From the sequence record NC_073325.1: DNA of 45,566 bases; one strand, 5' to 3'. This DNA comes from Escherichia phage vB_EcoS_XY1. A program made the position numbers and the translations under genes. A model generated the notes under the pieces. That model searched no databases and had not been told where the DNA came from. It worked only from the letters and a program-made list of their open reading frames with translations. Every line of letters starts with the position of its first letter. The first letter of the stretch is position 1. Of the stretch, positions 1 to 42,885 are shown in pieces.

Positions 1-127
1 GGGTCAGTCTGCGGCTTCCAGTTAGCGTTACCAACCGGGTTAAACGATGCGGGGACAACAACCGGCAGAGTCCCGGTATACGAGTACCACGTCTTGCTTA
101 CAGGGTCATACACCACTTTGTCTCGGT
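1..127. repeat. Direct terminal repeat; identical copy at 45440-45566 (circular closure overlap or terminal redundancy)
   Basis: Bases 1-127 match 45440-45566 exactly when read from the sequence. Confidence 0.9.
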
Positions 128-3295: not shown

Positions 3296-3807
3296 GTGGT
3301 CAACAGGCCGCGTAATAACGGTATCTCTTTAGGTGTCATCAGTATACCAGTGCTTCGTTGGTTCAGCATAGGTGTACCGACATCTGCGGAAAACTCGCCT
3401 TTCTCCTGATTGATGGCCTGTAACTCGTACACGACAGGGCCGTCCGCAGGATAAGACAGGTCGGTGCCGACGTAACGGCGGAATACAAACTTCGGCAACT
3501 CGGTGTTACTCATCGGGATTTTATCCATCTCATCATCAAGTTGATTGAGAATATCCGGTAGTGTAAACGTCGTCGTCTGGTCCATATCGCTGTTGTTAGC
3601 GGCCCCGGACGCCTCCATCGGGGTGGGTTCGAATGTGATAGTTTCGCCGGTTTCCAGTGTCGCCGTAAGTTCCTGTAGCCCACGAACAAGATAGTACGTC
3701 TTTGACAACAACGGGTGGCTGATTTGCAACGTGATGTAGTCTATCTCGCCGTCGGGATTTGATGCCAACTTACGGCGATAGGCAGCTTCTACTGATTCCT
3801 GACTCAT
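3292..3807 (-). CDS. Minor tail protein
   Basis: 171-aa ORF with start/stop overlap to its neighbours in the tail block; no motif recognised. Confidence 0.4.
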   Translation of the reverse strand: MSQESVEAAYRRKLASNPDGEIDYITLQISHPLLSKTYYLVRGLQELTATLETGETITFEPTPMEASGAANNSDMDQTTTFTLPDILNQLDDEMDKIPMSNTELPKFVFRRYVGTDLSYPADGPVVYELQAINQEKGEFSADVGTPMLNQRSTGILMTPKEIPLLRGLLTT

Positions 3808-3810
3808 AAG

Positions 3811-5211
3811 TTAGCCGTCCACATTAAAATCAATACGAGTGATATATTTACTACCCCACGCAGAATCGGCCTGAGGGATAGTCGCGTAATCATCTACAGC
3901 CTGAACGTTTATCACGGAGCCGTCGGAATAGGTGATGTCGATACTTGTCGCGCCGTTCATTACTACTTTTGCCGATGGCGCTGGGCGTGTTACAGGAGAC
4001 GCCGACGTAATTATTGGTGATGTTGTATTTTGGTTTACCTCTACAGTAGCCGCGGATAATTTAATCCCTGAAACGCCATCCCCCGTAAAGGATCCGGTAA
4101 CTCCGTCTGAATATATCCATGCGTCCATCCGTATGCTCATTGTTTTATCTTCTGTCGCGGTGATCGTCTCCGATATTCGGAACCACCCTCCGCCTACGTC
4201 GGTTACATCTGTACCGCCTGGGCCGGAATAAATGCTACCATCCCGCAAATCAACAACTGCCGAGCCTAATACTGTAGGAAGTTCTCGCACGTACATCCGT
4301 ATGAAATTGTATCCGTTTGCTTTTGCGAAGAAACTAAAAGTAACCATGTCGCCAACACCAACGCTAACATCTACAGTCTGGTTTATTAGGTGGTTACCGC
4401 TTGCGGCGGTAGCAGTTACGTCGTACGTGCCAGCGGCTGTTAAAACACCTGTTTCAGATACTGATACACTCACCAAACCTTTGTTCCAGTTTGACGAAGA
4501 GAAATTGCTTGAATATAGGAATCTGTTAGTTACTGATACCTCTGGTGGCACGCGCCCGGCGGCAACCCCGTCAATAAACGTAAGAGGCCATTCATTGGCG
4601 GCGGACTGTACAAGATTACCATTGCGGTTGATGTAATAAACCTGCGGCCCCTCATACACAATGCGGCTATCAAGAGTCGACGCCAGAAGGTTAATCGGCG
4701 GATACCCGGCGGGGCCTTCATTGCTCCAGATGCGAGGGAACGTCGTCTCATAGTTCGCGTATATTTTCAGGAAACTACCCAGACAATCCCCGTAACAACC
4801 GTACAAATCTGGAAGATTGTTAATCAGGCACTGGTTCTCAAGGTCCTGGAACGGAGATTTCTCCGCGGTTGCCGTGAAAGTAATCGTCCAGTTAATCCCG
4901 TCTTCTGTGGATTCCGCGATGGTTGACGTAATGGTTACCTGATAATCCTCGATACCCATGCCGAAGTCGTGCGCCATCCAGAAACTTGACGCACCGCCAT
5001 CGACTTTCTCAAGGAACGACAGGAACGCCTGCCGCCCTAGTGCTGAGGTAATCAGGGTTACGCTTATTGGGAACACGTCGTAATACGTGTCGCGCCCCTG
5101 GCGCACTCCGCCGCCAGCTAAATCAACGCTCCAGACGTTGTTACGTCGGGTCATTGAGTAGCCTTTCGACACCACCGGCTTTAAACTTGCTGGAAATTTC
5201 AAAGAAGACAT
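3811..5211 (-). CDS. Minor tail / distal tail protein
   Basis: 466 aa, first gene after the tape measure on this strand; AGGAG SD; Ser/Thr/Gly-rich beta-type composition. Confidence 0.45.
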   Translation of the reverse strand: MSSLKFPASLKPVVSKGYSMTRRNNVWSVDLAGGGVRQGRDTYYDVFPISVTLITSALGRQAFLSFLEKVDGGASSFWMAHDFGMGIEDYQVTITSTIAESTEDGINWTITFTATAEKSPFQDLENQCLINNLPDLYGCYGDCLGSFLKIYANYETTFPRIWSNEGPAGYPPINLLASTLDSRIVYEGPQVYYINRNGNLVQSAANEWPLTFIDGVAAGRVPPEVSVTNRFLYSSNFSSSNWNKGLVSVSVSETGVLTAAGTYDVTATAASGNHLINQTVDVSVGVGDMVTFSFFAKANGYNFIRMYVRELPTVLGSAVVDLRDGSIYSGPGGTDVTDVGGGWFRISETITATEDKTMSIRMDAWIYSDGVTGSFTGDGVSGIKLSAATVEVNQNTTSPIITSASPVTRPAPSAKVVMNGATSIDITYSDGSVINVQAVDDYATIPQADSAWGSKYITRIDFNVDG

Positions 5212-5246: not shown

Positions 5247-5897
5247 ATGATGCCAACCGAAAAAGTAGCCAAGAGCATGTGGCTGCGTGCGAATTATCCT
5301 GCGAACAAAAGCAGCAAAACTAAGCGTGCAACTATATGCGATTTTGGCATAAATGACGCCGATTATGTGGTTAGCCCCAAGATAAACGGCAACCGTGAGA
5401 CGTGTCTGGCGTACGCTACATGGCGAGGGATGATCCAACGTTGCGTGGACGCCGAGTATAAAAACAAAAGGCCTGCGTACAGGGATGTAACTGTGTGGCA
5501 TGGGTGGCAAAGGTTTATGTCCTTCCGTAGATGGTGGCTTTGTAATTATGTGGAGGGATGGGAGCTAGATAAGGATATATTCTCTGGTATTAATAAGGTA
5601 TACAGCCCTACCACTTGCATCTTCATCCCTAAATGGCTGAATGTTTTCCTAAAGGAAAAGAAAAATAGGGGAACACCTACGGGTGTTTTTTATGAAGAAT
5701 CTAGAGGTAAATTTAAAGCCTCAGTGAGCTATGATAAAAAAACTATTAATCTAGGACGTTTTGAAACTCAGGAAGAAGCGCTAGATGCTTACATTGCTGA
5801 AAAGATAAGGGTGGCGGAATCAAGAAGATGTGAGATAGAGGCGATAAGGGAAGGTATGTTCGACCGCGTTATCGCCTTGATAAAAGAGGGTCGTTAG
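5247..5897 (+). CDS. Homing-endonuclease-like protein (HNH-associated family with AP2-type DNA-binding domain)
   Basis: AGGAGA SD 7 nt before ATG; motifs YATWRGMIQRC, WELDKDIFSGINKVYSPTTCIFIP and AP2-like INLGRFETQEEALDAYIAE; opposite strand to the flanking tail genes. Confidence 0.45.
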   Translation: MMPTEKVAKSMWLRANYPANKSSKTKRATICDFGINDADYVVSPKINGNRETCLAYATWRGMIQRCVDAEYKNKRPAYRDVTVWHGWQRFMSFRRWWLCNYVEGWELDKDIFSGINKVYSPTTCIFIPKWLNVFLKEKKNRGTPTGVFYEESRGKFKASVSYDKKTINLGRFETQEEALDAYIAEKIRVAESRRCEIEAIREGMFDRVIALIKEGR

Positions 5898-5913
5898 CCC
5901 AGAGGCTGGAGAA

Positions 5914-5933
5914 ATAAGGCCCTTTCGGGCCTT
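5914..5933. terminator. Stem-loop terminator between the endonuclease-like gene and the tape measure gene
   Basis: AAGGCCC-TTTC-GGGCCTT hairpin followed by TTATGTTA. Confidence 0.5.
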
Positions 5934-5940
5934 TATGTTA

Positions 5941-8280
5941 TTACTTAAAGCCAGGTGCGTTTCTTGTAGCCTTCCTCGCTTTCGATATTTTGCTGTTGCT
6001 GTTCTGTAGCGAAGCAGCCACCTGCTCTTCTATGATGATGCGCAAACGGCCTTCGTCATCCTGCTCGGTAGATACGTTGCCAATCTGACTCGATGTGTTA
6101 TTTACAATGGTAACATTAGATGGGCCAGAAGAAGACCCATTTTGCCCCATAATTTCTTTCATCTGCTGCGCAGTTCGTACGCGCGATGCACCAGCAGGCA
6201 TGATAACTTCTGGTTTACCGCGTTCGGCGATGGTGGAAGCCTGCCCTGCGGATAACTGTCCGCCCTGCTCACGAGCGGACCTGATAGCGGAAATCTGCGC
6301 CATACCCGCCCCGACGGCAGCGGCAGCGGCTACAGGGGCCAGGAACGGGCCGACTACAGGGATAGCCGCCGTTGATTTATACGCCTCAATAGCTGCGGTG
6401 TACGTGGCAATAGTGGCCTGTACGATAGCGAATGCCTTATACGCGCCAGAAGCCTCACCCAACGCAGACCCGATGTTTGAGGCCATGTTGCCAAAGGCCG
6501 TTGCCGTTGCGTCGGCGCGCTTCGTAGCATACTGCTCATTGATAGCGTTAAGCGCCGCCTGATACTGTTTCTCGCTAATCAAACCCTGCTCGCGGTACTT
6601 ATCCGCTACCGCCAGTTTCTGCTGTTCCTGGATGTCGAGAAGCTCAAGCTCGGTGGCATTCTGACCCATAATCTGGGCCATGAAGTCTTCACCTTTCTGG
6701 TTCTTTTCCTGCCGTTCTTTCTCTCGCTTGGCGAGTTCTTCCTGTCGTGCGGTGTCAGCTTCCAGCATAATTTGAGTTTTGGCGTTCTCGTATTGCTGGT
6801 CGCTAAGAAGCTGGTTGCCGTAAAACTCTTGTAGCTTGGTTAACTGTTGCTCCTGATTAGCTTCTATTTTCTGGAATACATCATCATTGAGATGAATAGA
6901 CTGGTAGTAGAAATCCTCAGCGGCTTTCTTCTGGCGCTCGAACGCATCCGCGGCTTTCTTAGCGGCTTTTGCCCCCGCGCTATCATCCTCGGACCCGCCA
7001 CCAGTACCGGTTACCTTAAATTTACTAAGCCCTTCTGCCTTAGCGGCTTCTTTGTCGATGTCATATGCCGCGCGTTTAAGCGCGACGATATTTTGCTGAG
7101 CCTCCACCTGTTCGCGGAAACTTTTACGGGTCAGGTCCGCAACATCACGCTGAGTATCCAGTGCCATACCCAGCTGGAAGTTAATGTTTTTTGCTACGTC
7201 TACCGATTCACCTGGTGTGAAGGCTGCTTTCACCAACCGGCCAGCATCCTGCGCCCCTTTAACCATATCTTCAAAGAAACGCTCCATCGCGGTAAATTCT
7301 TCCGCGATGAAATCTAGCGCATCGGCGGCTGATTCTGCGATGGTTGTCGCCGTTTGTTCACCGCTATCGGTGATACTTTTACTGCTAAAATCCCAGAGTT
7401 CATTCAGCCCGTTTATCGCGTCGCCTACGAAACCAAATGCCGCGTCGAACGACATCTCTATCGCGCTTCCTACTTCCGACGCGATGTCACCCCACATACG
7501 CATCTCTGCGGCAAGTTCACCGGATGCAACCTGTGCGTTAAGTTCCTGGATTAAATCATCGATGTACCGGATAGGTTCCGCAAGAGCACCAACATCAAGG
7601 CTGGTAGCCAGTGTCATTTTTAACTGCGACCAGGAATCGCTGGCACTGGCGATAGCCCCATTAAGCGTGTTAGCCTGGTCCGCCATAGCCCCAGCGAAGT
7701 TTACGTTACCAATGTTGAGCAGGTATTGCTCGATATCGGCAGCGCTCTTCTTAACCACCGTAGTAGTGCCCTGGAATGTAAATTCAACATCGTCTTTGTT
7801 CTGCTTAGCCTTGATGCCGAATTCTTTAAGGCGCTCAAATTCAAACGTACTGGCGTCCGCAACGGCCTCAATCATCTGATTTAGGTCTTTACCCATAGCA
7901 GCGGCGGTGTTGCCATAGGAGCGCAACGCTTCTTCTGATGGTGTAAGACCAAGCGCCACAAGTTTACGGAATCCCTCTACTGCCTGTTCAAGACCATACG
8001 GAGTGTCGCGCGCGAAGTCTTGCAGGATGCTTAATGCCTGTCTTGCCCCCTGCGTGCTTCCGGTTAGTGTTTTCAGGCTGGCGGACATCTTATCCAGTTG
8101 CCGTTGGGAGTCTACTAGTTCCTGTGCGGCCTTGTACGCGGTAGCAGCGACGATGGAAGCGAGGCCCGCTACCGCGGCCCCGGCTACCTTTGCGGACTTG
8201 GAAAGGTTATCAAGACGGTCTGAGGTAGCTTTCGCGCCTTGCTCTGATACTTTTACAACTAAACTAGCTACATCAGCCAT
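5941..8280 (-). CDS. Tail tape measure protein
   Basis: 779 aa, Ala/Gln/Glu-rich coiled-coil composition, immediately after the G/GT chaperone pair. Confidence 0.85.
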   Translation of the reverse strand: MADVASLVVKVSEQGAKATSDRLDNLSKSAKVAGAAVAGLASIVAATAYKAAQELVDSQRQLDKMSASLKTLTGSTQGARQALSILQDFARDTPYGLEQAVEGFRKLVALGLTPSEEALRSYGNTAAAMGKDLNQMIEAVADASTFEFERLKEFGIKAKQNKDDVEFTFQGTTTVVKKSAADIEQYLLNIGNVNFAGAMADQANTLNGAIASASDSWSQLKMTLATSLDVGALAEPIRYIDDLIQELNAQVASGELAAEMRMWGDIASEVGSAIEMSFDAAFGFVGDAINGLNELWDFSSKSITDSGEQTATTIAESAADALDFIAEEFTAMERFFEDMVKGAQDAGRLVKAAFTPGESVDVAKNINFQLGMALDTQRDVADLTRKSFREQVEAQQNIVALKRAAYDIDKEAAKAEGLSKFKVTGTGGGSEDDSAGAKAAKKAADAFERQKKAAEDFYYQSIHLNDDVFQKIEANQEQQLTKLQEFYGNQLLSDQQYENAKTQIMLEADTARQEELAKREKERQEKNQKGEDFMAQIMGQNATELELLDIQEQQKLAVADKYREQGLISEKQYQAALNAINEQYATKRADATATAFGNMASNIGSALGEASGAYKAFAIVQATIATYTAAIEAYKSTAAIPVVGPFLAPVAAAAAVGAGMAQISAIRSAREQGGQLSAGQASTIAERGKPEVIMPAGASRVRTAQQMKEIMGQNGSSSGPSNVTIVNNTSSQIGNVSTEQDDEGRLRIIIEEQVAASLQNSNSKISKARKATRNAPGFK

Positions 8281-8632
8281 CGTTTCTGCCCTCGAAAATA
8301 GCGTCTAAGCTCATGATGATGTCAGATTCAAACATGTCTATATTCTGGCCCGAAACGGTGCTGTATGCCACTAAATCCGACCATCTTAACTGTTCGCGCG
8401 GGTACATCTTGATGCCGTCGTCATCCACTCGGCGGGTAAATTTGATTTCCCGGTACTTCTCGAAGGTGGTTAATAGCTCAGGGGGGCATTCTGGCCCGGT
8501 ATCCTGCGTTGCTTCCGGCGCGTCTTGCATAACCCCCATAGCAATTAGCGCGGCTTTATGTCCGTCGGCAATGCTGTCAAACTCCCGCCGTTTGTGGCGG
8601 GTTATGAAGTTCCAACGGGCAAACTGGAGCAA
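8273..8632 (-). CDS. Tail assembly chaperone frameshift extension (T segment of a G-T fusion)
   Basis: ORF in the -1 frame relative to the upstream chaperone, open across its stop codon; typical G/GT arrangement before a tape measure gene. Confidence 0.5.
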   Translation of the reverse strand: MLQFARWNFITRHKRREFDSIADGHKAALIAMGVMQDAPEATQDTGPECPPELLTTFEKYREIKFTRRVDDDGIKMYPREQLRWSDLVAYSTVSGQNIDMFESDIIMSLDAIFEGRNDG

Positions 8633-8637
8633 CGCGT

Positions 8638-9054
8638 CTACTTTTCCTGCAATTGGTGAAGCTGTTCGTTGTGGAAAACAACAACGTGTTCAGCGAGGCG
8701 TTTATATTGTGAGAAAAGAGTGTTCAGGTTCTCTTTATTAAATTCATCGTCGAGACTCCAACCGTTAACCAGTTCAAGTGCTAACTGGCGGTTAAGGTCC
8801 GTCGCGGCGTCTTCCATCTTAATATTGTATTCCGAGAAATCTTTCAGTTCCTCACATTTATCACGAAGCGGTTTCAATTTACCTAATGCCGCGCGGTACG
8901 CAAGTGTAAACGCCCTCATAGCTTTAACGGCAACGTCTGCCTCCGGTGAAACAACGTTCAGCCACTCCCCTGAATCGGTGCCGTCTTTCAGTGGTATTGG
9001 CATACGGGCGCCTTTTTCTGCCTCAGCTTCGTAATAAAAATCAGAAAGTTTCAT
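8638..9054 (-). CDS. Tail assembly chaperone (G-like)
   Basis: 138 aa, acidic, directly upstream of the -1 frame ORF and the tape measure; AAAGGA SD. Confidence 0.55.
   Translation of the reverse strand: MKLSDFYYEAEAEKGARMPIPLKDGTDSGEWLNVVSPEADVAVKAMRAFTLAYRAALGKLKPLRDKCEELKDFSEYNIKMEDAATDLNRQLALELVNGWSLDDEFNKENLNTLFSQYKRLAEHVVVFHNEQLHQLQEK
8641..8647 (-). other. Putative -1 programmed ribosomal frameshift site (GAAAAG followed by the TAG stop)
   Basis: A-rich slippery run at the last codons of 8638-9054; the -1 frame continues without a stop into 8273-8632. Confidence 0.4.
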
Positions 9055-9160
9055 TCTTTAATCCTTTGGTTAAGAGGTTACTGGTTAAGGTTAATGCGCC
9101 AGACGGGAACCACCCGCTTTTCGTGTGCGACACTAGGCGCAAAATAATTCTAACACATTA

Positions 9161-9197
9161 CTTGCACACCCCAACATAATAGGATACTATTCACTTA
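9161..9197. promoter_or_regulatory. 37-bp bidirectional promoter/operator element (inverted copy of 30192-30228)
   Basis: Plus orientation TTGCAC-N17-TACTAT; minus orientation TTGGTG-N16-TATTAT; contains the palindrome AATAG-N4-CTATT; 36 of 37 nt identical to the reverse complement of 30192-30228. Confidence 0.5.
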
Positions 9198-9231
9198 CAC
9201 CAACAATGTTAACTCAAACAGGAGCTACCCC

Positions 9232-9423
9232 ATGACAGGTATTACTATGTTCTTCTTAATCATTATCGTTTTAGTTTATTTTATCCCATTTCTCGTGGCG
9301 CATATGCGCAACCATAAAGCTAAATTAGCGATATTCATGGCTAATCTGTTTCTCGGTTGGGTTCTGCTGCCGTGGGTATTTATTTTAATCTGGGCGTGCA
9401 ACTCGAATGTCAAAGAGAAGTGA
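9232..9423 (+). CDS. Small membrane protein, superinfection-immunity (Imm) -like
   Basis: 63 aa with two hydrophobic helices; NLFLGW..W...IWA-type motif as in the Imm_superinfect family; AGGAG SD. Confidence 0.45.
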   Translation: MTGITMFFLIIIVLVYFIPFLVAHMRNHKAKLAIFMANLFLGWVLLPWVFILIWACNSNVKEK

Positions 9424-9461
9424 GCTAGTATAGGACAAATCCTAAACACGAGGAAGTAAGC

Positions 9462-10616
9462 ATGGCCCAGAAGAAAATAACCGACGAACAGTTACAGGAA
9501 GAATTGAACGCCGGGATGAAGATTATTGATATCGCCCGTAAATACGGCATCTCAGACCGCGTTATTCGTATCCGTAAAGCGAAGCTGGCTAAGAAAGGTG
9601 TAGGCCACGGGCGTGACGTTAGTCACCTTGTACCGGACGGCTACAAGATTAAAGGAACGTCGTCTCTGGTTGATGAGTTAGGCAACACTAAACTGCAATG
9701 GGTTAAGACCGACACCGATGCGGAACGTCAGGTCGAGTTAATGAAAGCCGTTGTGGACGAGATGAAAAAAGATTTACCCAAGTATAAGCCAGTCACTTTG
9801 GCCAAAAATGGGACAGATGACGACTTATTAAATCTTTACACAATAACAGACCATCACATAGGGATGTTGGCGTGTCAAGAAGAAGGCGGGGATGATTACG
9901 ACACCACAATCGCGGAATCTCTCGCGGTTGACTGGTTCAACAGTGCGGTTTGTATGAGTCCACAGAGTGGTGAATGTATCATTAACTTCTTAGGGGACCA
10001 AATGCACTACGACGGCATGAAGGCAATGACCCCTATGAGCGGTCATATTCTTTCAGCGGATAGTCGCCTGTTTAAAATGATACGCACGGCCATTAAGGTT
10101 ATCAAGCTGGCTGTCTCACTGTGCTTGCGAAAACACAAGAAGGTTAAACTTCTTATCTGTGAAGGTAACCACGACCTTAGTTCTTCTCTGTGGCTCCGGG
10201 AGATGTTCTACGAGGTATACACAAATGAGCCTCGCGTCGAGGTTAACCGGGAGGTGTCACCGTATTATGCGTACAAGTTCGGGGATTGTATGATTTCAGC
10301 ACATCACGGGCATTGTTCTAACTTTGCTAAGGTAGAGCAGGCTATAATCGGTAAGTACCGGGAGATGTACGGGCGGTGTAAGTTCACATATGTCCATACG
10401 GGGCACCTCCATCACAGGGCGGTTAAAGAGACTAATCTGCTAATTGTTGAGCAACACCAGACATTAGCGGCTAAAGATGAGTATTCTAGTAAGGGCGGCT
10501 ATTATTCAGGTAGAAGCGCAAATGTGATTACATACCACAAACGTTACGGGGAGGTGTCCCGCATAAGTATACCTGTCGAAATGCTGCGAGACATAAACCC
10601 AAAATCGACATACTAA
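9462..10616 (+). CDS. HTH domain fused to a calcineurin-like metallophosphoesterase
   Basis: N-terminal HTH (IIDIARKYGISDRVIR); metallophosphoesterase-like motifs TDHHIG, LGDQMHYDG, EGNHD, HHGH, TGHLHH. Confidence 0.45.
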   Translation: MAQKKITDEQLQEELNAGMKIIDIARKYGISDRVIRIRKAKLAKKGVGHGRDVSHLVPDGYKIKGTSSLVDELGNTKLQWVKTDTDAERQVELMKAVVDEMKKDLPKYKPVTLAKNGTDDDLLNLYTITDHHIGMLACQEEGGDDYDTTIAESLAVDWFNSAVCMSPQSGECIINFLGDQMHYDGMKAMTPMSGHILSADSRLFKMIRTAIKVIKLAVSLCLRKHKKVKLLICEGNHDLSSSLWLREMFYEVYTNEPRVEVNREVSPYYAYKFGDCMISAHHGHCSNFAKVEQAIIGKYREMYGRCKFTYVHTGHLHHRAVKETNLLIVEQHQTLAAKDEYSSKGGYYSGRSANVITYHKRYGEVSRISIPVEMLRDINPKSTY

Positions 10617-10631
10617 AATATAGGTGAAAGT

Positions 10632-11195
10632 ATGGATTGGAGTGAGGTTTTTAGCTACAAAAATGGCGTCCTATACTGGAAAGTCAAATCATGTCGCCGT
10701 AACGATGTGAATACAGGTGATGTGGCCGGGAGTTTGTGTAAAAACGGCTATTGGTATGTCATGTTTGGTAACCGTAAGTTTAAAAGGTCGAGGGTGGTGT
10801 ATGAGATGTTCAGTACGCTGTATGACAATGAGCCGCGTGTGTTCGTCGATACGTCACCGGATGTTTACAAGATGGTGCAACACGGCAAAACGACGCTGTT
10901 CTTCCATCACGGGCATAAAGCACGATTCGACGCTATCGAACCGGTTATGATTGCCAAGTTTCGTAAAGCGTTCGGCGAGAGTGTTTACAGCTACGCCCAC
11001 GTAGGCCACCTGCACCATCAGAAGATTGTAGAAAGCCGTAACATGATTGTTGAGCAACACCGCACCTTAGCGGCTAAAGATGCCTACGCCTCCCGCGGCG
11101 GTTGGATGTCGGGCCGTAGTGCAAATGTAATTACTTATAGCGCCGAATATGGCGAGGTCGCACGTTTAACTATTTCACCGGAGATGCTTGGATGA
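10632..11195 (+). CDS. Chimeric paralog: homing-endonuclease-type N-terminal DNA-binding region fused to a duplicate of the C-terminal ~100 aa of 9462-10616
   Basis: N-terminus NGVLYWKV...GDVAGS...NGYWYV...RSRVVY follows the pattern that precedes the catalytic motif in phage HNH endonucleases; C-terminus HHGH...HVGHLHH...IVEQHRTLAAKD...GRSANVITY is clearly homologous to the end of the upstream gene. Confidence 0.4.
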   Translation: MDWSEVFSYKNGVLYWKVKSCRRNDVNTGDVAGSLCKNGYWYVMFGNRKFKRSRVVYEMFSTLYDNEPRVFVDTSPDVYKMVQHGKTTLFFHHGHKARFDAIEPVMIAKFRKAFGESVYSYAHVGHLHHQKIVESRNMIVEQHRTLAAKDAYASRGGWMSGRSANVITYSAEYGEVARLTISPEMLG

Positions 11196-11680
11196 AAGAT
11201 ATTGTGATTTTCGATTTAGACGGGACATTGGCCGATGGTACTCATCGTTTACATCTGCTGCCGAAAGATAACTACGGCGAAACCTGGGCGTGGAAGCCTT
11301 TTAACATGGCCTGTAAAGATGATGCGCCGATATATGACAACATTCACTTGTGCAACACACTGTGGCATACCGGGATGACCATAATCATCCTTACCGGGCG
11401 CAGTGATGATGCTGAGGATGAGACCCGTAAATGGTTGCGAGAAAATAACGTTAAGTTTGACACGCTGATAATGCGCAGCAAACACGACAACAGAAAAGAC
11501 ATCGCAATTAAAGAAGAGGTGTTGCGTGCTATCGGGCTGGAGAGAATCTTGTGTGCGTTCGACGACTCTCCAGCGGTAATAAAGCATTTCCGTAACCTCG
11601 GCATAACCACTCACGCAGTTACCGAATACGACTGTAACGGGAACTCTACACACTTAAAATCACACGGGAGTGATAAATAA
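11192..11680 (+). CDS. HAD-superfamily phosphatase (nucleotidase or polynucleotide 3'-phosphatase-like)
   Basis: Motif I FDLDGTL, motif II ILTGR, downstream Lys and FDD motifs; ATGA start/stop overlap with upstream gene. Confidence 0.6.
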   Translation: MKDIVIFDLDGTLADGTHRLHLLPKDNYGETWAWKPFNMACKDDAPIYDNIHLCNTLWHTGMTIIILTGRSDDAEDETRKWLRENNVKFDTLIMRSKHDNRKDIAIKEEVLRAIGLERILCAFDDSPAVIKHFRNLGITTHAVTEYDCNGNSTHLKSHGSDK

Positions 11681-12249
11681 TGGCTAAGGTAATTATTCTT
11701 AATGGTCCTGCTGGTTGCGGGAAAGACACACTTGCTATGGCGCTGGTAGAAATGGGCTTTGCAAAAGGGACTACCAGTTTCAAGAATCCAATGTTCAATA
11801 TTGCGCTGGCGGCGTTAGGCCAGGATGCCTACCACGAGTTTCTCGACGGCTACGACGACCGTGCCCGGAAAGAAAAGCCAGAGGGTTTCCTTAATGGGTT
11901 GTCTCGGCGTCAGTTCATGATCGCCATTTCTGAGCAATTCATTAAACCAGTACTTGGTAGTGATTATTTCGGTAAGTATCTCGCTGAAAACTTGCCTGAC
12001 GGCGACGAAGTTTTTGTAGTGTCCGACGGTGGATTCGCCAGTGAAGTTGCCCCTATCGTCGCCGCAGGGCATGACGTGCGAATCGTCCGCCTCCATCGTG
12101 ACGGCTATACGTTCATCGGCGATAGCCGTGGCTATCTGTATGATATCGATGGTGCGGTATGTCATGACGTCGACGTCATTCCGGGCGAGATTACATTAAC
12201 AGCGGCCGCGATTGCTAATAGAATCCTGGGGATTTACCCAAATGCGTGA
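11680..12249 (+). CDS. P-loop kinase (dNMP kinase or polynucleotide kinase-like)
   Basis: Walker A GPAGCGKDT near the N-terminus, resembling phage dNMP kinase; start immediately after the HAD gene stop. Confidence 0.5.
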   Translation: MAKVIILNGPAGCGKDTLAMALVEMGFAKGTTSFKNPMFNIALAALGQDAYHEFLDGYDDRARKEKPEGFLNGLSRRQFMIAISEQFIKPVLGSDYFGKYLAENLPDGDEVFVVSDGGFASEVAPIVAAGHDVRIVRLHRDGYTFIGDSRGYLYDIDGAVCHDVDVIPGEITLTAAAIANRILGIYPNA

Positions 12250-12418
12250 ATGCACAACGGGGACAATATACGTTATCCGTGTATACGACGAAGAATGGGA
12301 CGAGTGGGTTGATATTTATGCCGTCGGTAGTAAGGAAGAGGCCTCTAAAGAAATGACAGAACGAAGTGACCGAGGCCAGTTAACTAACTTCTACGAAATG
12401 CCATTCAAAAGTGAGTAA
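12242..12418 (+). CDS. Hypothetical small acidic protein
   Basis: ATG at 12242 overlapping the upstream stop (track ORF 12212-12418 trimmed to the ATG). Confidence 0.3.
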   Translation: MRECTTGTIYVIRVYDEEWDEWVDIYAVGSKEEASKEMTERSDRGQLTNFYEMPFKSE

Positions 12419-12419
12419 G

Positions 12420-12448
12420 AAAAGGCCCCGAAAGGGGCCTTAGTTTTA
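12420..12448. terminator. Bidirectional rho-independent terminator (identical copy at 42857-42885)
   Basis: AAAAGGCCCCGAAAGGGGCCTTAGTTTTA: GC stem with A/T runs on both sides, between convergent gene ends. Confidence 0.7.
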
Positions 12449-13618
12449 TGCGTAACTAATACGTTGAATTACGATAGACGACTGGTACTGGTTGCCTGTG
12501 GACTGTCCTTCTATACTTTGGGTAATTGATTCCGGGCCAGATATTTCTGGTGTAACAGCCGTAAGTTCTGCACGTTTCAAACTGAAAGACATAGCCCCGT
12601 TTACCCCCGCCAGAATAGAGTTAATCTCTACCTGCTGTTCATTGATGAACTTCTGAATCATCGCCATGTCGTACAGCTTACCGGAGATGGAGAAGGTGTT
12701 AGCGGCGCGGCTACGTTCCACAAACGCTACGTTAGTGTTGCCAAGTTCGAACTGTGCGGATGCGCTGTTATCGTTGGTGATTGTCAGGCTATCACAACGC
12801 AACGGCATAGAACCATCGAACACAGAAACGTCAACCGAAGAGAACGGCTCGTCACCAAACGTGACAGAGGAGAAATCAGAACCCGTCGGCGGCGTGGTGA
12901 GAATCTCCTGGCTGCGCCCGATGAACGGGAAACTGCCAGTTACCATCGCATTAACGGCCTGCTCGACAGTGAAACCGGAAACTTCCACACCTTTAGTCAG
13001 CGTGTACGCGTCAGCCCCGCCACACTGCCCTTTGTACCACGTGAGAATAGAGAACGTCTTGCACTGGCTTCCTGTTTCCAGTTTGTCGCCAGTCTTAGCG
13101 GCGGTAGTTACGGTCTCAGTGGTCAGAGTATGTTGGATACCAGCACCTGTAACAACAGATGCGCTTACCTCGGTTACGATAAACGGTTTGGCGTTATCAC
13201 CTGTTAAGTCGGTAAACGCAATCAGGTCGCCCACTTCAACGCCGTCGGTAATAAAGCTGCCATCAGCACGGGTGAACGTCTTGCCCGCCGGTGCGACGGT
13301 AATCGACAGCCCGGACAGAGAAACACCGGATTGCCACGTAGAACCTAAAGCCCCAGCCAGCCAGTCGTCCTGGCTTTTCGAACTAAGCTCAATAGCGTAT
13401 TCCCCGCTAACCTGCTTGTTACCGGTGCGGATGGACGTAGTTTCACGACTGCCGTCCAGTTCGTTGGATGTCAGTGTGTCACGGGTAATGGCGGGAACAC
13501 CGCCCGTGTTACGTAATGGTGACCATACCGGGTTAGTCGGTGTTACGCCCGGGGTCACTTCCGCCACATAGAATTGCGCGGTATTCGCGCCCTTAAAAGG
13601 AGTTGTAGCCATATTCAC
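12446..13618 (-). CDS. Major tail protein (tail tube), putative
   Basis: 390 aa, Thr/Ser/Gly-rich; last structural gene before the chaperones (separated by the plus-strand cassette); ends in a strong terminator. Confidence 0.45.
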   Translation of the reverse strand: MNMATTPFKGANTAQFYVAEVTPGVTPTNPVWSPLRNTGGVPAITRDTLTSNELDGSRETTSIRTGNKQVSGEYAIELSSKSQDDWLAGALGSTWQSGVSLSGLSITVAPAGKTFTRADGSFITDGVEVGDLIAFTDLTGDNAKPFIVTEVSASVVTGAGIQHTLTTETVTTAAKTGDKLETGSQCKTFSILTWYKGQCGGADAYTLTKGVEVSGFTVEQAVNAMVTGSFPFIGRSQEILTTPPTGSDFSSVTFGDEPFSSVDVSVFDGSMPLRCDSLTITNDNSASAQFELGNTNVAFVERSRAANTFSISGKLYDMAMIQKFINEQQVEINSILAGVNGAMSFSLKRAELTAVTPEISGPESITQSIEGQSTGNQYQSSIVIQRISYA

Positions 13619-19176: not shown

Positions 19177-19200
19177 ATTAAAAAGCCCCTTTCGGGGCCT
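19177..19200 (-). terminator. Rho-independent terminator after gene 19205-19666
   Basis: GGCCCCGAAAGGGGC hairpin followed by TTTTT on the minus strand. Confidence 0.6.
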
Positions 19201-19204
19201 AAGT

Positions 19205-19666
19205 TTATTCGGGCTTAGTGACCTTCGCCGCTTTGCTGACAGCCTCTACACCATCGGCATCAGTAACTTTAACGAAGTATTCCCCAACAGAATTAACCGT
19301 CAGAGACAAAGCCTCTTCCGGGGCGTTAACCACTTCCTTCCCGTCTTTGTACCAGGTCAGCGCATATGGTGCTTTGCCCGCCTTAACTTCGACAGCGATA
19401 TTTGCGCTGCCGTCTGCCAGTTCAGCGTCCTGCGGTTGTACGGAGAAATACACATCACCAGCATCCGCCAGGTACTGAATCTCATAAAGCATGCCCGCCG
19501 CCGGTAGCGCAATACCGGTTTTATCTGCAAACGGCATATCGTCTACGGGCGCACCCAGTACACTTTCATCTTCAATAAATACCACGTTCTCGCCGGAGCC
19601 AGGCACACGGGCGTACTGGACTACGCGACGCGACGGTACATCAGTTACTTTGAAAAATCCCATCAT
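19205..19666 (-). CDS. Hypothetical protein with Ig-like C-terminal region
   Basis: 153 aa; C-terminal YALTWYKDGKEV...EYFVKVTDADG resembles Ig-like folds. Confidence 0.35.
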   Translation of the reverse strand: MMGFFKVTDVPSRRVVQYARVPGSGENVVFIEDESVLGAPVDDMPFADKTGIALPAAGMLYEIQYLADAGDVYFSVQPQDAELADGSANIAVEVKAGKAPYALTWYKDGKEVVNAPEEALSLTVNSVGEYFVKVTDADGVEAVSKAAKVTKPE

Positions 19667-20742: not shown

Positions 20743-20778
20743 ACTATAAGAAAGCCCCTTTCGGGGCTATATGTGAGC

Positions 20779-30191: not shown

Positions 30192-30228
30192 TAAGTGAAT
30201 AGTAACCTATTATGTTGGGGTGTGCAAG
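30192..30228. promoter_or_regulatory. 37-bp bidirectional promoter/operator element (inverted copy of 9161-9197)
   Basis: TAAGTGAATAGTAACCTATTATGTTGGGGTGTGCAAG; minus orientation TTGCAC-N17-TACTAT; plus orientation TATTAT -10; palindrome AATAG-N4-CTATT. Confidence 0.5.
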
Positions 30229-33671: not shown

Positions 33672-33686
33672 TTTTAGAAAAGCCCA

Positions 33687-33715
33687 TTGACATGTGAATA
33701 GTTCGCTATTATAGT
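33687..33715 (+). promoter_or_regulatory. Near-consensus sigma70 promoter with embedded operator palindrome
   Basis: TTGACA-N17-TATAGT; spacer contains AATAG-TTCG-CTATT; 29 bp upstream of the 33744 ATG. Confidence 0.6.
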
Positions 33716-33743
33716 TAGCCCATACCAAACGAGAGGGGCAGAT

Positions 33744-36778: not shown

Positions 36779-36782
36779 AGTG

Positions 36783-36811
36783 TTGACATCTGAATAGTTA
36801 GCTATTATAGT
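36783..36811 (+). promoter_or_regulatory. Sigma70 promoter with operator palindrome upstream of the SSB/polymerase operon
   Basis: TTGACA-N17-TATAGT with AATAG-TTAG-CTATT in the spacer; nearly identical to 33687-33715. Confidence 0.6.
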
Positions 36812-36865
36812 TCTAATCACTGGCCGGGCAGCTTCCCGGAGTAATCTTAAAAGCGAGAAATCAAG

Positions 36866-42208: not shown

Positions 42209-42720
42209 TGGATTTCGAAGAGTTTCTACTTAAAGCTCATCTGCTGGCGCGTGGGTTTGACGCTGACCGTCTCCAGGTAGTCTTAGCCCCTGGAGTAGCT
42301 ACGTTTTACCTGTGGGGGTTTGACGGTAGGCTTCGCGGATACCAGCATTACAAACCACATGCCGAAAAGAACTGTAAAAACCCTAAAGACGCGCGGTACT
42401 TTACCAGAACAACAAGGCCGTGTTTATGGGGGCTTGAGTATTTGCCGGAAAGCGGGGTGGTATTTGTTACCGAAAGCATATTCAAAGCCGTAGCCTTGAT
42501 GAATTGCGGGTTCAATGCTGTAAGCGCACTGGGGTCAAATATATCAACAGACCTACGGCAGCAAATGTCACTTTTGCCGTATGACTGGGTGTGCGCTGGC
42601 GACAATGATAAAGCTGGATTAAAGTTCAGCAAAACATTCACCAGAGGATTTGTATCTAACGACCTTGATGAACTTTGTGAAGAAGAAATAACGTATCTTG
42701 CGAGGAAATTTACCAGATGA
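42205..42720 (+). CDS. TOPRIM-domain protein (DnaG-type primase catalytic core-like)
   Basis: VFVTESIFKA (Glu) and VCAGDNDKAG (DxD) motifs. Confidence 0.45.
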   Translation: MMDFEEFLLKAHLLARGFDADRLQVVLAPGVATFYLWGFDGRLRGYQHYKPHAEKNCKNPKDARYFTRTTRPCLWGLEYLPESGVVFVTESIFKAVALMNCGFNAVSALGSNISTDLRQQMSLLPYDWVCAGDNDKAGLKFSKTFTRGFVSNDLDELCEEEITYLARKFTR

Positions 42721-42854: not shown

Positions 42855-42856
42855 AG

Positions 42857-42885
42857 AAAAGGCCCCGAAAGGGGCCTTAGTTTTA
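42857..42885. terminator. Bidirectional rho-independent terminator (identical copy at 12420-12448)
   Basis: AAAAGGCCCCGAAAGGGGCCTTAGTTTTA between convergent gene ends. Confidence 0.7.

What the first reader, a model, noticed from the sequence alone, without database searches (positions are those of the whole stretch)
9232..12418. Plus-strand accessory cassette wedged inside the tail operon: Imm-like peptide, metallophosphoesterase pair, HAD phosphatase, P-loop kinase
Seen: five to six genes on the opposite strand interrupt the late structural operon between the tail chaperones and the major tail protein. They are bounded by the 37-bp promoter/operator element (9161-9197) and a strong bidirectional terminator (12420-12448), and are translationally chained by ATGA and TAA-ATG overlaps. 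Motifs read by eye: two-helix Imm-like peptide; HTH plus metallophosphoesterase-like motifs (GNHD, GHLHH); HAD motif I FDLDGTL; Walker A GPAGCGKDT. Inference: a kinase, a phosphatase and a phosphoesterase together resemble the end-healing enzymes of RNA/DNA repair (Pnkp-type), which phages use against host anticodon nucleases; the Imm-like peptide suggests superinfection exclusion. A nucleotide-salvage role (dNMP kinase plus nucleotidase) is the main alternative. The combination and its placement look like a moron-type functional unit rather than core replication genes.
Basis: partly seen in the sequence, partly recalled or inferred. Interest (0 to 1): 0.75.

Follow-up and report, generated by a model that had tools for sequence, protein, structure and literature searches.

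The report
Phage nucleotide-enzyme cassette with homing-endonuclease scar
This is the standard early-gene island of Kagunavirus phages (superinfection-immunity peptide, DNA-binding metallophosphoesterase, HAD phosphatase, dNMP kinase), ordinary except that a truncated homing-endonuclease gene has been fused to a leftover piece of the phosphoesterase gene.

Summary
The window is a Kagunavirus (Guernseyvirinae) genome. Sequenced relatives carry the same island at the same place between the tail chaperones and the tail-tube gene.

The kinase is not a polynucleotide kinase. Its model matches T4 dNMP kinase best. It is 48% and 45% identical to two phage kinases (Rao1 gp58, VAC2) tested in the Kongming-defence study; Rao1 gp58 was shown biochemically to phosphorylate dNMPs. 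The phosphatase belongs to the T4-Pnkp/T5-Dmp HAD branch. No ligase is encoded.

The order metallophosphoesterase, HAD, kinase recurs in T1-like phages, so this is a widespread nucleotide-metabolism block. RNA end-healing is not supported.

The "metallophosphoesterase pair" is wrong. ORF2 is one intact but mosaic enzyme. ORF3 joins the first 60 codons of an HNH homing endonuclease in frame, at a 9-10-nt microhomology, to the last 127 codons of the resident phosphoesterase gene. This junction is absent from 50,697 phage genomes and from 16 Kagunavirus contigs. It is best read as the scar of a homing or recombination event.

Interest is low to moderate.

The parts
9161..9197 (+). Promoter-like 37-nt element (-35 TTGCAC 9162-9167, 17-nt spacer, -10 TACTAT 9185-9190) in front of the island
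   Evidence: A second copy, 36/37 identical, lies at 30192-30228 on the minus strand; 0 matches are expected by chance. Both copies are present in VIPECOTH07. The -35 and -10 hexamers are conserved in ST20, BUCT823 and wksl3. It falls below the threshold of the consensus scan. Promoter function is inferred.
9232..9423 (+). ORF1, 63 aa, two hydrophobic helices, superinfection-immunity (Imm) family
   Evidence: Pfam PF14373 Imm_superinfect E = 7.7e-14, 51.8 bits against a 27.9 cutoff. phrog_1039 'immunity to superinfection' E = 2.5e-23. An Imm-family gene is annotated at this position in Kagunavirus and in Jerseyvirus wksl3.
9462..10616 (+). ORF2, 384 aa, N-terminal helix-turn-helix plus intact binuclear metallophosphoesterase (annotated 'DNA repair exonuclease'). 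It is mosaic: 9462 to about 9750 is Kagunavirus-type, and about 9750 to 10616 is Jerseyvirus/BUCT823-type.
10632..11195 (+). ORF3, 187 aa, a chimera. Codons 1-60 (10632-10811) are the N-terminus of an HNH homing endonuclease. Codons 61-187 (10812-11195) are the C-terminal 127 residues of the resident Kagunavirus-type phosphoesterase. It is predicted to be catalytically dead as either enzyme.
   Evidence: PHROG hits: residues 1-60 to HNH phrog_99, residues 42-186 to positions 245-389 of phrog_704. 59 of the first 60 residues are identical to the 166-aa HNH of BUCT823, whose HNH_3 domain spans residues 53-95. Residues 61-187 are identical to the C-terminus of Kagunavirus protein P0008. The DNA switches from BUCT823/wksl3-like to ST20/VIPECOTH07-like at 10803-10811.
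10803..10811 (+). Recombination junction: microhomology GAGATGTTC (codons E-M-F), shared by the HNH gene and the Kagunavirus phosphoesterase gene. It is 10 nt (10802-10811) if the donor carried the T seen in wksl3.
   Evidence: In a five-sequence alignment these are the only columns identical in all sequences across the switch. No record among 50,697 phage genomes spans the junction.
11192..11680 (+). ORF4, 162 aa, HAD (DxDxT) phosphatase of the Pnkp-phosphatase / T5-Dmp branch
   Evidence: Pfam PF25109 HAD_PNKP E = 8.9e-21. phrog_415 E = 5.8e-67. PDB sequence hits to Pnkp1 4XRP and to the T4 PNK phosphatase domain 5UJ0/1LTQ. It is 48-61% identical to T1 ST64, Rao1 gp57 and the VAC2 'pnk', with invariant D8, D10, T68-G-R70, D99-N-R-K-D103, K107 and D124-D125. 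hhalign to T5 Dmp gives probability 84%.
11680..12249 (+). ORF5, 189 aa, P-loop deoxynucleoside monophosphate kinase (DNK family)
   Evidence: phrog_139 E = 9.5e-45. The AF2 model has pLDDT 93. The Foldseek top hit is T4 dNMP kinase 1DEK (E = 3e-6, TMq 0.64). It is 48% identical to R1DNK (Rao1 gp58) and 45% identical to the VAC2 DNK. R1DNK was assayed as a dNMP kinase, and both trigger Kongming toxicity. The catalytic Lys15 is conserved.
12242..12418 (+). ORF6, 58 aa, unknown function, overlaps the kinase stop codon (ATGCGTGA)
   Evidence: No Pfam, PHROG, NCBIfam or PADLOC hit. Annotated at the same place in ST20 and called in contig L011. Absent from VIPECOTH07.
12422..12441 (.). Intrinsic-terminator-like hairpin shared by the island and the convergent tail gene
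   Evidence: 8-bp stem with 6 G-C pairs and a GAAA loop, called on both strands. The 32-nt unit 12418-12449 is repeated exactly at 42855-42886.
30192..30228 (-). Second copy of the 37-nt promoter-like element, driving a leftward operon of small genes

Best explanation
The region is the conserved plus-strand island of Guernseyvirinae phages.

Transcription (inferred). It is read from its own sigma-70-type promoter. The same 37-nt element also heads a leftward operon of small genes beside the replication region. It ends at a hairpin shared with the tail-tube gene.

Gene products.
1. An Imm-family membrane peptide. A role in superinfection exclusion is inferred from family membership only.
2. A DNA-binding (HTH) binuclear metallophosphoesterase. 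A role as a nuclease or phosphodiesterase on DNA is inferred.
3. A HAD phosphatase of the Pnkp/Dmp branch. It would remove 3'-phosphates from DNA ends or 3'-dNMPs, or dephosphorylate selected 5'-dNMPs. The substrate is not resolved.
4. A dNMP kinase that converts dNMPs to dNDPs for phage DNA synthesis. This activity was shown biochemically for a 48%-identical homologue.

Together the last three form a nucleotide-metabolism block. It most likely channels DNA-breakdown products into the dNTP pool. It is not an RNA end-healing system.

What is peculiar to this genome is a recombination scar. A BUCT823/Jerseyvirus-type allele (phosphoesterase with a diverged 3' half, followed by a freestanding HNH homing-endonuclease gene) was copied into a Kagunavirus that carried phosphoesterase, HAD and kinase. 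The left crossover fell in homologous sequence near 9750. The donor's downstream genes have no counterpart in the recipient. The right end was therefore joined at a 9-10-nt microhomology (GAGATGTTC) between HNH codon 58-60 and codon ~243-245 of the resident phosphoesterase gene. The result is an intact mosaic ORF2 and an in-frame fusion, ORF3, that lacks both active sites. ORF3 still ends in the ATGA overlap, which may keep the phosphatase and kinase translationally coupled.
For: Identity and position.
- The window aligns to Kagunavirus VIPECOTH07 over 41.6 kb at 89-99% identity.
- The order imm, exo, HAD, kinase sits at the same site in Kagunavirus records and in 16 of 16 Kagunavirus-like IMG/VR loci.

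Kinase.
- The top structural match is 1DEK, and T4 PNK is not in the top 50.
- It is 48% identical to R1DNK and 45% to the VAC2 DNK.
- R1DNK phosphorylates dAMP, dGMP and dCMP. K15A abolishes its effect. Deleting dnk lowers dATP.

HAD.
- PF25109 E = 8.9e-21.
- The residues listed for T4 Pnkp (Asp165, Asp167, Ser211, Lys258, Asp278; PMC3592404) have conserved counterparts.

Metallophosphoesterase.
- Motifs and fold.

The block recurs elsewhere.
- Rao1 gp56-57-58, VAC2, Logan contigs L006 and L007, and IMG/VR loci L040, L042 and L044-L046.
- In a 74-kb phage the phosphoesterase and kinase flank a DUF4406 gene, close to a dCMP deaminase gene, with a DNA ligase gene further downstream.

No ligase.
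- None is annotated in the relative.
- No window segment unmatched to that relative is long enough to encode one, apart from part of a tail gene.

Scar.
-.
- The HNH is 62% identical to T1 ST15, which also lies directly downstream of T1's phosphoesterase gene.
- An HNH-free allele with the Kagunavirus-type 3' end exists in ER20.
- Intact HNH genes sit between phosphoesterase and HAD in L030 and L043. An extra 0.65-0.85 kb separates HAD from kinase in L031-L037, where T1 carries HNH ST63.
- The junction is absent from all phage records.
- The same 5.3 kb is assembled identically in a Logan contig.
Against: - No substrate is known for the metallophosphoesterase. It has no Pfam or PDB sequence match. 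Its fold neighbours include non-nuclease phosphodiesterases (MJ0936, YfcE, LpxH) as well as Mre11/SbcD.
- The HAD belongs to the family whose founding member heals nucleic-acid 3' ends. An end-processing role is therefore not excluded.
- The kinase often stands alone: 45 of 80 IMG/VR loci have neither partner within 5 kb. Linkage is lineage-specific rather than obligatory.
- Deleting dnk in Rao1 had no measurable fitness cost.
- Promoter timing is inferred from sequence only.
- ORF3 is an intact ORF with a ribosome-binding site, so a function is not excluded.
- The homing scenario is reconstructed from comparisons. The HNH cleavage site is unknown.
- The Logan contig may come from the same sample as the window, so it may not be independent.
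Confidence: 0.6

Rival explanations
1. Pnkp-type end-healing. The kinase, phosphatase and phosphoesterase would repair RNA (tRNA) or DNA ends cut by host anticodon nucleases or other defence nucleases. A host ligase would do the sealing.
For: - The HAD is a bona fide member of the Pnkp phosphatase family.
- Metallophosphoesterases can act as 2',3'-cyclic phosphodiesterases. This was shown for CthPnkp and lambda phosphatase (PMC2190708, listed).
- Kinase and phosphatase are adjacent and overlap by one base.
Against: - The kinase is a dNMP-kinase-family enzyme by structure. It is also homologous to an enzyme biochemically shown to be a dNMP kinase.
- T4 PNK is not among its structural neighbours.
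- No RNA or DNA ligase is encoded in the genome.
- The kinase family is embedded in nucleotide-metabolism contexts elsewhere, such as dCMP deaminase and DUF4406.
Confidence: 0.08
2. DNA end-processing for phage replication or recombination. The HTH-metallophosphoesterase would be an Mre11/SbcD-like nuclease acting on phage or host DNA ends. The HAD would clear 3'-phosphate blocks. The kinase would be merely a neighbour.
For: - The N-terminal HTH suggests DNA binding.
- The related nuclease MPE leaves a mixture of 3'-PO4 and 3'-OH ends (PMC7826289, abstract). A 3'-phosphatase would be needed to clear such ends.
- Imm and phosphoesterase are the invariant core of the island, while HAD and kinase come and go.
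Against: - No Rad50/SbcC-type partner lies next to it.
- The genome carries a separate exonuclease and annealing-protein pair in its replication region.
- Phosphoesterase-HAD-kinase or phosphoesterase-x-kinase linkage recurs across phage families.
Confidence: 0.17
3. Counter-defence by nucleotide-pool editing. The HAD would act like T5 Dmp, a 5'-dNMPase, and/or the phosphoesterase would hydrolyse signalling or modified nucleotides. This would blunt defences that sense phage nucleotide metabolism, such as Kongming (dITP made through phage DNK) or PUA-Cal-HAD (m6-dAMP).
For: - The kinase family is the known Kongming trigger. T5 Dmp, a HAD, is the known antidote, and Dmp homologues frequently co-occur with DNKs.
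- ORF4's family is distantly related to T5 Dmp (hhalign probability 84%). A weak PF26880 hit is recorded on the T1-like homologue.
- Metallophosphoesterase plus HAD is a proven nucleotide-hydrolysing pair in a bacterial defence (bioRxiv 10.64898/2026.01.15.699771).
Against: - Rao1 carries the homologous phosphoesterase and HAD (gp56, gp57) next to its DNK. It is nevertheless Kongming-sensitive and needs T5 Dmp supplied in trans.
- No PADLOC or other sequence link connects the island proteins to defence-type Calcineurin-CE or HAD proteins.
- ORF4 scores far better against HAD_PNKP than against any dNMPase model.
Confidence: 0.12
4. ORF3 and the mosaic structure are an assembly artefact that joins reads from two co-occurring phages.
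For: - Both parental types exist in public data.
- The left boundary lies in sequence shared by the two types.
- The only other contig with the junction may come from the same sample.
Against: - The right junction rests on only 9-10 nt of shared sequence. This is far below assembler k-mer sizes.
- The junction is in frame and preserves the downstream ATGA coupling.
- An independent assembler (Logan) produced 5,301 identical bases across it.
Confidence: 0.04

Closest known systems
The Kagunavirus island imm / 'DNA repair exonuclease' / 'polynucleotide kinase' (HAD) / dNMP kinase, e.g. vB_VIPECOTH07 genes 55-58, ST20, K1G, Golestan
   Same: Same genes, order, strand and position between the tail chaperones and the tail-tube gene. 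Same promoter element and terminator. 89-100% nucleotide identity outside the replaced segment.
   Different: In the window, 1,046 bp (about 9750-10800) replace 444 bp of the phosphoesterase gene. This adds a Jerseyvirus-type 3' half, an HNH fragment and a duplicated 3' end (ORF3). No record covers 80% or more of 9100-12500.
Drexlerviridae (T1-like) block: Rao1 gp56-gp57-gp58, VAC2 QZE50417-50419; T1 ST16, ST64 and ST62
   Same: Homologous HTH-metallophosphoesterase (38-44%), HAD (48-61%) and kinase (39-48%). The order is the same in Rao1, VAC2 and L006. The kinase of this block is the experimentally characterised DNK.
   Different: The block lies in the replication/lysis region, not inside the tail operon. 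It has no Imm gene. In T1 itself the block is split, and HNH genes sit after the phosphoesterase and between HAD and kinase.
T4 polynucleotide kinase-phosphatase (Pnkp)
   Same: ORF4 shares the DxDxT HAD phosphatase family and its catalytic residues.
   Different: The kinase is a separate gene placed after the phosphatase, and it belongs to the dNMP-kinase family rather than the Pnk kinase family. There is no partner ligase.
T4 gp1 / T5 Dnk / R1DNK deoxynucleoside monophosphate kinases
   Same: P-loop GxxGxGKD with the catalytic Lys, and an NMP-kinase-like fold. 1DEK is the best structural match. 48% identity to R1DNK.
   Different: Only 19% identity to T4 gp1 over the Foldseek alignment. Substrate range is untested for this protein.
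T5 Dmp (5'-deoxyribonucleotidase, anti-Kongming)
   Same: HAD phosphatase encoded by phages that also carry a DNK. Distant profile similarity over motifs I-II.
   Different: Much weaker match than to HAD_PNKP. The Rao1 homologue does not protect against Kongming.
Freestanding HNH homing endonuclease genes (T1 ST15, wksl3 gp48, BUCT823 166-aa ORF)
   Same: The first 60 codons of ORF3 are 59/60 identical to the BUCT823 HNH. That HNH family sits immediately downstream of the phosphoesterase gene in T1 and in Jerseyvirus.
   Different: Here the gene is cut 8 residues into its HNH_3 domain (which spans residues 53-95 in the intact protein) and fused to phosphoesterase sequence. No endonuclease can be made.
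Bacterial PUA-Calcineurin-CE-HAD defence module
   Same: A metallophosphoesterase working with a HAD phosphatase on deoxynucleotides.
   Different: It is host-encoded, has a PUA sensor, forms filaments and depletes dNTPs. No sequence relationship was detected here. This is an analogy only.

Membership tests
T4 Pnkp-type end-healing system | HAD (DxDxT) 3'-phosphatase of the Pnkp family | tested here: met
   PF25109 E = 8.9e-21. PDB sequence hits to Pnkp1 and T4 PNK. D8/D10, T68, the R-K-D/K107 block and D124-D125 are conserved.
T4 Pnkp-type end-healing system | P-loop 5'-OH polynucleotide kinase related to the Pnk kinase domain | tested here: not met
   The Foldseek top hit is T4 dNMP kinase 1DEK, and T4 PNK (1LTQ) is absent from the top 50. 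A 48%-identical homologue was assayed as a dNMP kinase.
T4 Pnkp-type end-healing system | Partner RNA ligase encoded by the phage | tested here: not met
   No ligase appears among the 75 annotated genes of VIPECOTH07, which is 89-99% identical. The window segments unmatched to it are under 1 kb and are accounted for.
T4 Pnkp-type end-healing system | Activity on 5'-OH and 2',3'-cyclic-phosphate or 3'-phosphate nucleic-acid ends | not testable with these tools
   Needs enzyme assays.
Phage dNMP kinase (DNK; T4 gp1 / R1DNK family) | P-loop GxxGxGK(D/S)T with the catalytic lysine | tested here: met
   GPAGCGK15DT. LNGPxGxGKD is invariant in 35 homologues. The K15A mutation inactivates R1DNK.
Phage dNMP kinase (DNK; T4 gp1 / R1DNK family) | Full-length homology to experimentally tested members | tested here: met
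   48% identity to R1DNK (E = 2e-61). 45% to VAC2 QZE50419 (E = 7e-43). phrog_139 E = 9.5e-45.
Phage dNMP kinase (DNK; T4 gp1 / R1DNK family) | NMP-kinase-like fold closest to T4 gp1 | tested here: met
   Model pLDDT 93. 1DEK at E = 3e-6, TMq 0.64.
Phage dNMP kinase (DNK; T4 gp1 / R1DNK family) | Phosphorylates dNMPs to dNDPs | not testable with these tools
   Shown for R1DNK only.
Calcineurin-like binuclear metallophosphoesterase superfamily (ORF2) | Five metal-binding motifs: DxH, GD, GNH(D/E), H, GHxH | tested here: met
   D130/H132, G178-D179, G235-N236-H237-D238, H281-H284 and G314-H315-x-H317 are invariant in 13 sequences.
Calcineurin-like binuclear metallophosphoesterase superfamily (ORF2) | Four-layer alpha/beta sandwich fold | tested here: met
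Calcineurin-like binuclear metallophosphoesterase superfamily (ORF2) | Match to the Pfam Metallophos models | tested here: not met
   No Metallophos family at E <= 1. No PDB sequence or profile hit. The family is too divergent for sequence models.
Calcineurin-like binuclear metallophosphoesterase superfamily (ORF3) | Complete set of metal-binding motifs | tested here: not met
   ORF3 aligns only to positions 245-389 of phrog_704. It has HHGH and GHLHH but lacks DxH, GD and GNH.
Mre11/SbcD nuclease | Rad50/SbcC ATPase partner encoded alongside | tested here: not met
   The neighbours are Imm, ORF3, HAD and the kinase.
Imm superinfection-immunity family (ORF1) | Match to PF14373 above the curated cutoff | tested here: met
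   51.8 bits against 27.9. phrog_1039 E = 2.5e-23.
Imm superinfection-immunity family (ORF1) | Blocks DNA entry of superinfecting phage | not testable with these tools
   Needs infection assays.
HNH homing endonuclease (ORF3 N-terminus) | Intact HNH catalytic domain | tested here: not met
   The HNH_3 domain spans residues 53-95 in the intact 166-aa protein. ORF3 keeps only residues 1-60.
T5 Dmp-type 5'-dNMPase / anti-Kongming | Homology to T5 Dmp and protection from Kongming | tested here: inconclusive
   hhalign probability 84% over 69 columns. Rao1 carries the homologue gp57 but remains Kongming-sensitive.
Moron / accessory unit | Own promoter and terminator, and presence or absence varying among close relatives | tested here: inconclusive
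   The signals are predicted and conserved. HAD and kinase are absent from wksl3, BUCT823 and ER20. An Imm-position ORF and the phosphoesterase gene are present in every relative examined, and the whole set is constant within Kagunavirus.

The most novel reading that the evidence does not exclude
The HTH-metallophosphoesterase, HAD phosphatase and dNMP kinase would work as one coupled pathway. It would turn host-DNA breakdown products into dNDPs and at the same time remove nucleotides that bacterial defences sense (dAMP and dIMP for Kongming, m6-dAMP for PUA-Cal-HAD). The block would then be both a defence trigger and a counter-defence. Separately, the ORF3 scar would mark the cleavage site of the T1-ST15-type HNH homing endonuclease at about codon 245 of the Kagunavirus-type phosphoesterase gene. 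That would make the gene a natural homing target shared by two phage families.
Probability: 0.15. Interest if true: 0.55.

Novelty: new member of a known kind. Interest (0 to 1): 0.22.

Why it matters
- It corrects a tempting annotation. 'Polynucleotide kinase' plus 'P-loop kinase' in these phages is not a Pnkp repair system. It is a HAD phosphatase next to a dNMP kinase of the family now known to trigger the Kongming defence. This bears on predicting which therapeutic Kagunavirus and T1-like phages are sensitive to that defence.
- It shows that metallophosphoesterase-HAD-kinase is a recurring, still uncharacterised block in two phage families. The phosphoesterase and the phosphatase have no known substrate, so they are reasonable biochemical targets.
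- The scar is a clean natural example of a homing-endonuclease-associated gene conversion that was finished by microhomology joining. It leaves a decoy 'second enzyme' that automatic annotation calls 'DNA repair exonuclease'.

Tried and rejected
- Sequence searches of ORF2 and ORF5 against PDB, as single sequences and as profiles, gave only P-loop or HTH noise. Structure prediction was needed.
- Pfam and NCBIfam gave nothing for ORF2's catalytic domain, ORF3 or ORF6.
- PADLOC gave no link to defence proteins.
- Literature on Kagunavirus and Jerseyvirus held only annotation-level statements. A search for anti-defence calcineurin-like phosphoesterases in phages found only a host defence system.
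- I tested whether the 336-aa protein upstream of the kinase in a T7-like contig (L009) is a homologue of ORF2. BLAST and Pfam found nothing; it has only motif-like strings.
- I tested whether the 76-aa ORF after the phosphoesterase gene in ER20 is a truncated HAD. It is not. It matches the small ORF found downstream of the HNH in BUCT823.
- I considered that the two phosphoesterase copies were a functional paralogue pair. This was rejected because ORF3 lacks three of the five motifs and begins with HNH sequence.
- I considered an assembly chimera. It was judged unlikely because the junction rests on only 9-10 nt.
- The identity of phage Rao1 could not be obtained from the paper's text. It was settled from the GenBank record, which shows a T1-like gene order.

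Full report
**What is there**

The window is a complete Kagunavirus-like (Guernseyvirinae) siphovirus genome of 45,439 bp plus a 127-bp assembly overlap. It aligns over 41.6 kb at 89-99% identity to Escherichia phage vB_VIPECOTH07.

Between the minus-strand tail chaperones (ending at 9054) and a 390-aa tail-tube-type protein (12446-13618) lie six plus-strand ORFs:
- 9232-9423
- 9462-10616
- 10632-11195
- 11192-11680
- 11680-12249
- 12242-12418

The G+C-rich hairpin at 12422-12441 is called as a terminator on both strands.

The 37-nt element at 9161-9197 recurs 36/37 at 30192-30228 on the minus strand. None is expected by chance. That second copy precedes a leftward operon of small genes beside the replication region. 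Both copies are present in VIPECOTH07. The -35 and -10 hexamers are conserved as far as Jerseyvirus wksl3.

So the island looks like an independently transcribed unit that uses the same promoter type as that operon of small genes. This is inferred from sequence alone. G+C is a few points lower than in the flanking structural genes.

**The proteins**

| ORF | Size | Assignment | Key evidence |
|---|---|---|---|
| ORF1 | 63 aa | Imm_superinfect family | 51.8 bits vs 27.9 cutoff |
| ORF2 | 384 aa | HTH + metallophosphoesterase | phrog_704 E = 5e-150 |
| ORF3 | 187 aa | HNH / phosphoesterase chimera | see scar section |
| ORF4 | 162 aa | HAD_PNKP phosphatase | E = 8.9e-21 |
| ORF5 | 189 aa | dNMP kinase | phrog_139 E = 9.5e-45 |
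| ORF6 | 58 aa | no match in four libraries | |

ORF2 matches no Pfam or PDB sequence. An alignment of 13 homologues shows all five metallophosphoesterase motifs invariant. A moderate AF2 model (pLDDT 71) hits metallophosphoesterase folds only:
- Foldseek probability 1.0 to PolD-DP1, Mre11 and LpxH.

The first ~45 residues form three helices with weak FixJ/LuxR-type HTH similarity.

ORF4's best PDB sequence matches are Pnkp1 and the T4 Pnkp phosphatase domain. The residues listed as catalytic for T4 Pnkp (PMC3592404) have conserved counterparts in ORF4 and in its T1, Rao1 and VAC2 homologues.

**The kinase decides the interpretation**

- A high-confidence model (pLDDT 93) has T4 dNMP kinase 1DEK as its best match. 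Adenylate and phosphomevalonate kinases follow. T4 polynucleotide kinase is not in the top 50.
- The Kongming-defence study (bioRxiv 10.1101/2024.12.20.629578) gives the sequences of the phage 'DNK' enzymes it tested. ORF5 is 48% identical to R1DNK, gp58 of phage Rao1. It is 45% identical to the DNK of Klebsiella phage VAC2. The lysine whose K15A mutation inactivates R1DNK sits at the same position in ORF5.
- R1DNK phosphorylates dAMP, dGMP and dCMP. Deleting it lowers dATP during infection.

ORF5 is therefore a dNMP kinase by homology to a tested enzyme, not a Pnk-type kinase. No ligase is annotated in the near-identical relative. The window segments that do not align to that relative are too short to hide one.

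**Context in other phages**

The genome records show that Rao1 (gp56-57-58) and VAC2 carry homologues of ORF2, ORF4 and ORF5 in the same order. Two T1-like Logan contigs do the same.

In T1 itself the phosphoesterase (ST16) is followed by an HNH gene (ST15). The HAD (ST64) and kinase (ST62) are separated by another HNH (ST63).

In a 74-kb phage the phosphoesterase (29% identity) and the kinase flank a DUF4406 gene close to a dCMP deaminase gene, with a DNA ligase gene further downstream.

I scanned 80 IMG/VR loci that carry a kinase homologue with profiles of the three proteins:

| Group | Loci | Arrangement |
|---|---|---|
| Kagunavirus-like | 16 of 16 | single phosphoesterase abutting HAD and kinase |
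| More distant | 7 | all three genes present, two of them (L030, L043) with an HNH gene inserted |
| HAD plus kinase only | 11 | no phosphoesterase within 5 kb |
| Kinase alone | 45 | neither partner within 5 kb |
| Partial kinase match | 1 | no partner within 5 kb |

The block is thus a lineage-specific but recurring association, not an obligatory complex.

Within Guernseyvirinae the island's content varies:
- Kagunavirus: imm-exo-HAD-kinase.
- wksl3: imm-exo-HNH-orf-Ant.
- BUCT823: imm-exo-HNH plus small ORFs.
- ER20: imm-exo-orf76.

The Imm-position ORF and the phosphoesterase are the constant core.

**The scar**

No phage record covers 80% or more of 9100-12500. The similarity pattern along the island is as follows:

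| Window segment | Closest relative | Identity |
|---|---|---|
| 8600-9749 | Kagunavirus VIPECOTH07 | 98.6% |
| 9750-10811 | BUCT823; Jerseyvirus phages | 90-100%; ~94% |
| from ~10800 onward | Kagunavirus ST20 | 91-94% |

The switch occurs at GAGATGTTC (10803-10811). These are the only columns shared by the HNH gene and the Kagunavirus phosphoesterase gene.

- ORF3's first 60 residues are 59/60 identical to the BUCT823 HNH. That protein's HNH_3 domain spans residues 53-95, so the domain is destroyed in ORF3.
- Residues 61-187 are identical to the C-terminus of a Kagunavirus phosphoesterase and lack motifs I-III.
- ORF2 is itself mosaic. Residues 1-97 are Kagunavirus-type and the rest is Jerseyvirus-type.
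- The HNH is 62% identical to T1 ST15, which occupies the same place after T1's phosphoesterase gene.
- ER20 provides an HNH-free allele with the Kagunavirus-type 3' end.
- L030 and L043 have intact but different HNH genes between phosphoesterase and HAD.
- The junction is spanned by no record among 50,697 phage genomes and by none of the 16 Kagunavirus IMG/VR loci.
- It is present in one Logan contig that is identical to the window over 5,301 bp.

The most economical reading runs as follows. An HNH-associated allele was copied into a Kagunavirus. The left end was resolved by homology. The right end was resolved by microhomology, because the donor's downstream genes have no counterpart in the recipient. 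This is an inference from comparison. The endonuclease's cut site is unknown.

**Mechanism and its limits**

- Shown by homology to tested enzymes: dNMP kinase activity for ORF5.
- Shown by family membership and conserved catalytic residues: a HAD phosphomonoesterase for ORF4 and a binuclear metallophosphoesterase for ORF2.
- Inferred: ORF2 acts on DNA, on the basis of its HTH and its Mre11/SbcD-like neighbours. ORF4 removes 3'-phosphates or dephosphorylates particular dNMPs. The three enzymes feed DNA-breakdown products into dNTP synthesis.

ORF4's family is distantly related to T5 Dmp, the HAD that counters Kongming. However, Rao1 carries the homologue gp57 and is still Kongming-sensitive. 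A Dmp-like counter-defence role is therefore not supported, though not excluded.

A bacterial defence uses a metallophosphoesterase plus a HAD to strip dNTPs. This shows that such a pair can act on nucleotides. No sequence link was found.

**Verdict**

The favoured end-healing interpretation is not supported, and the fallback nucleotide-metabolism interpretation is. The cassette is a standard, already annotated feature of its genus. It belongs to a block shared with T1-like phages, and its kinase has recently been characterised.

The only new element is the HNH/phosphoesterase chimera. It is a neat but unsurprising recombination scar.

Noticed in passing
window 1-127 and 45440-45566: Exact 127-nt direct repeat at the two ends of the window. 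Most likely the overlap of a circular or circularly permuted assembly, giving a true genome length of 45,439 bp.
   Followed up: no
window 12418-12449 and 42855-42886: The 32-nt terminator unit of the island is repeated exactly 30 kb away. Related G+C hairpins lie at 19178-19209, 20746-20767 and 5910-5931. The Logan contig L011 breaks at this repeat.
   Followed up: partly
window ~5247-5897 (+): A second plus-strand island lies in the tail operon: an intact HNH-endonuclease-like ORF between a tail protein gene and the tape-measure gene. The same gene is annotated in VIPECOTH07 as gene 51, phrog_953.
   Followed up: partly
window 3811-5211 (-): A 466-aa virion/tail protein sits where VIPECOTH07 has a 166-aa protein. 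958 bp (3807-4765) have no match in that relative. This suggests an added C-terminal domain, possibly host-range related.
   Followed up: no
window 33673-33716 and 36769-36812: A 44-nt repeat contains a near-consensus promoter (TTGACA ... TATTATAGTT) in the replication-gene region. It is a different promoter class from the 37-nt element.
   Followed up: no
L030 3969-4454; L043 4014-4517; L010 (T1) 5465-5959 and 42028-42510; L031-L037: Gene boundaries of the phosphoesterase-HAD-kinase block repeatedly hold freestanding HNH genes of different families. They occur after the phosphoesterase (T1, L030, L043, Jerseyvirus) and between HAD and kinase (T1). L031-L037 have an extra 0.65-0.85 kb at the HAD-kinase boundary, which I did not inspect.
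   Followed up: partly
L008 3341-5594: In a 74-kb phage contig the HAD position between phosphoesterase and kinase is taken by a DUF4406 protein. A dCMP deaminase gene lies just upstream and a DNA ligase gene further downstream.
   Followed up: partly
window 11192-11680 (ORF4) and homologues: The stand-alone phage HAD family has an invariant C-terminal L-x-S-H-G motif and a conserved HRLHLLP segment after motif I. Neither is part of the generic HAD motifs.
   Followed up: no
PHROG families 20703, 20762, 21891: Separate PHROG families correspond to the N-terminal (1-194) and C-terminal (260-374) parts of the phosphoesterase. This suggests that split or truncated versions of this gene are annotated in other phages.
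   Followed up: no
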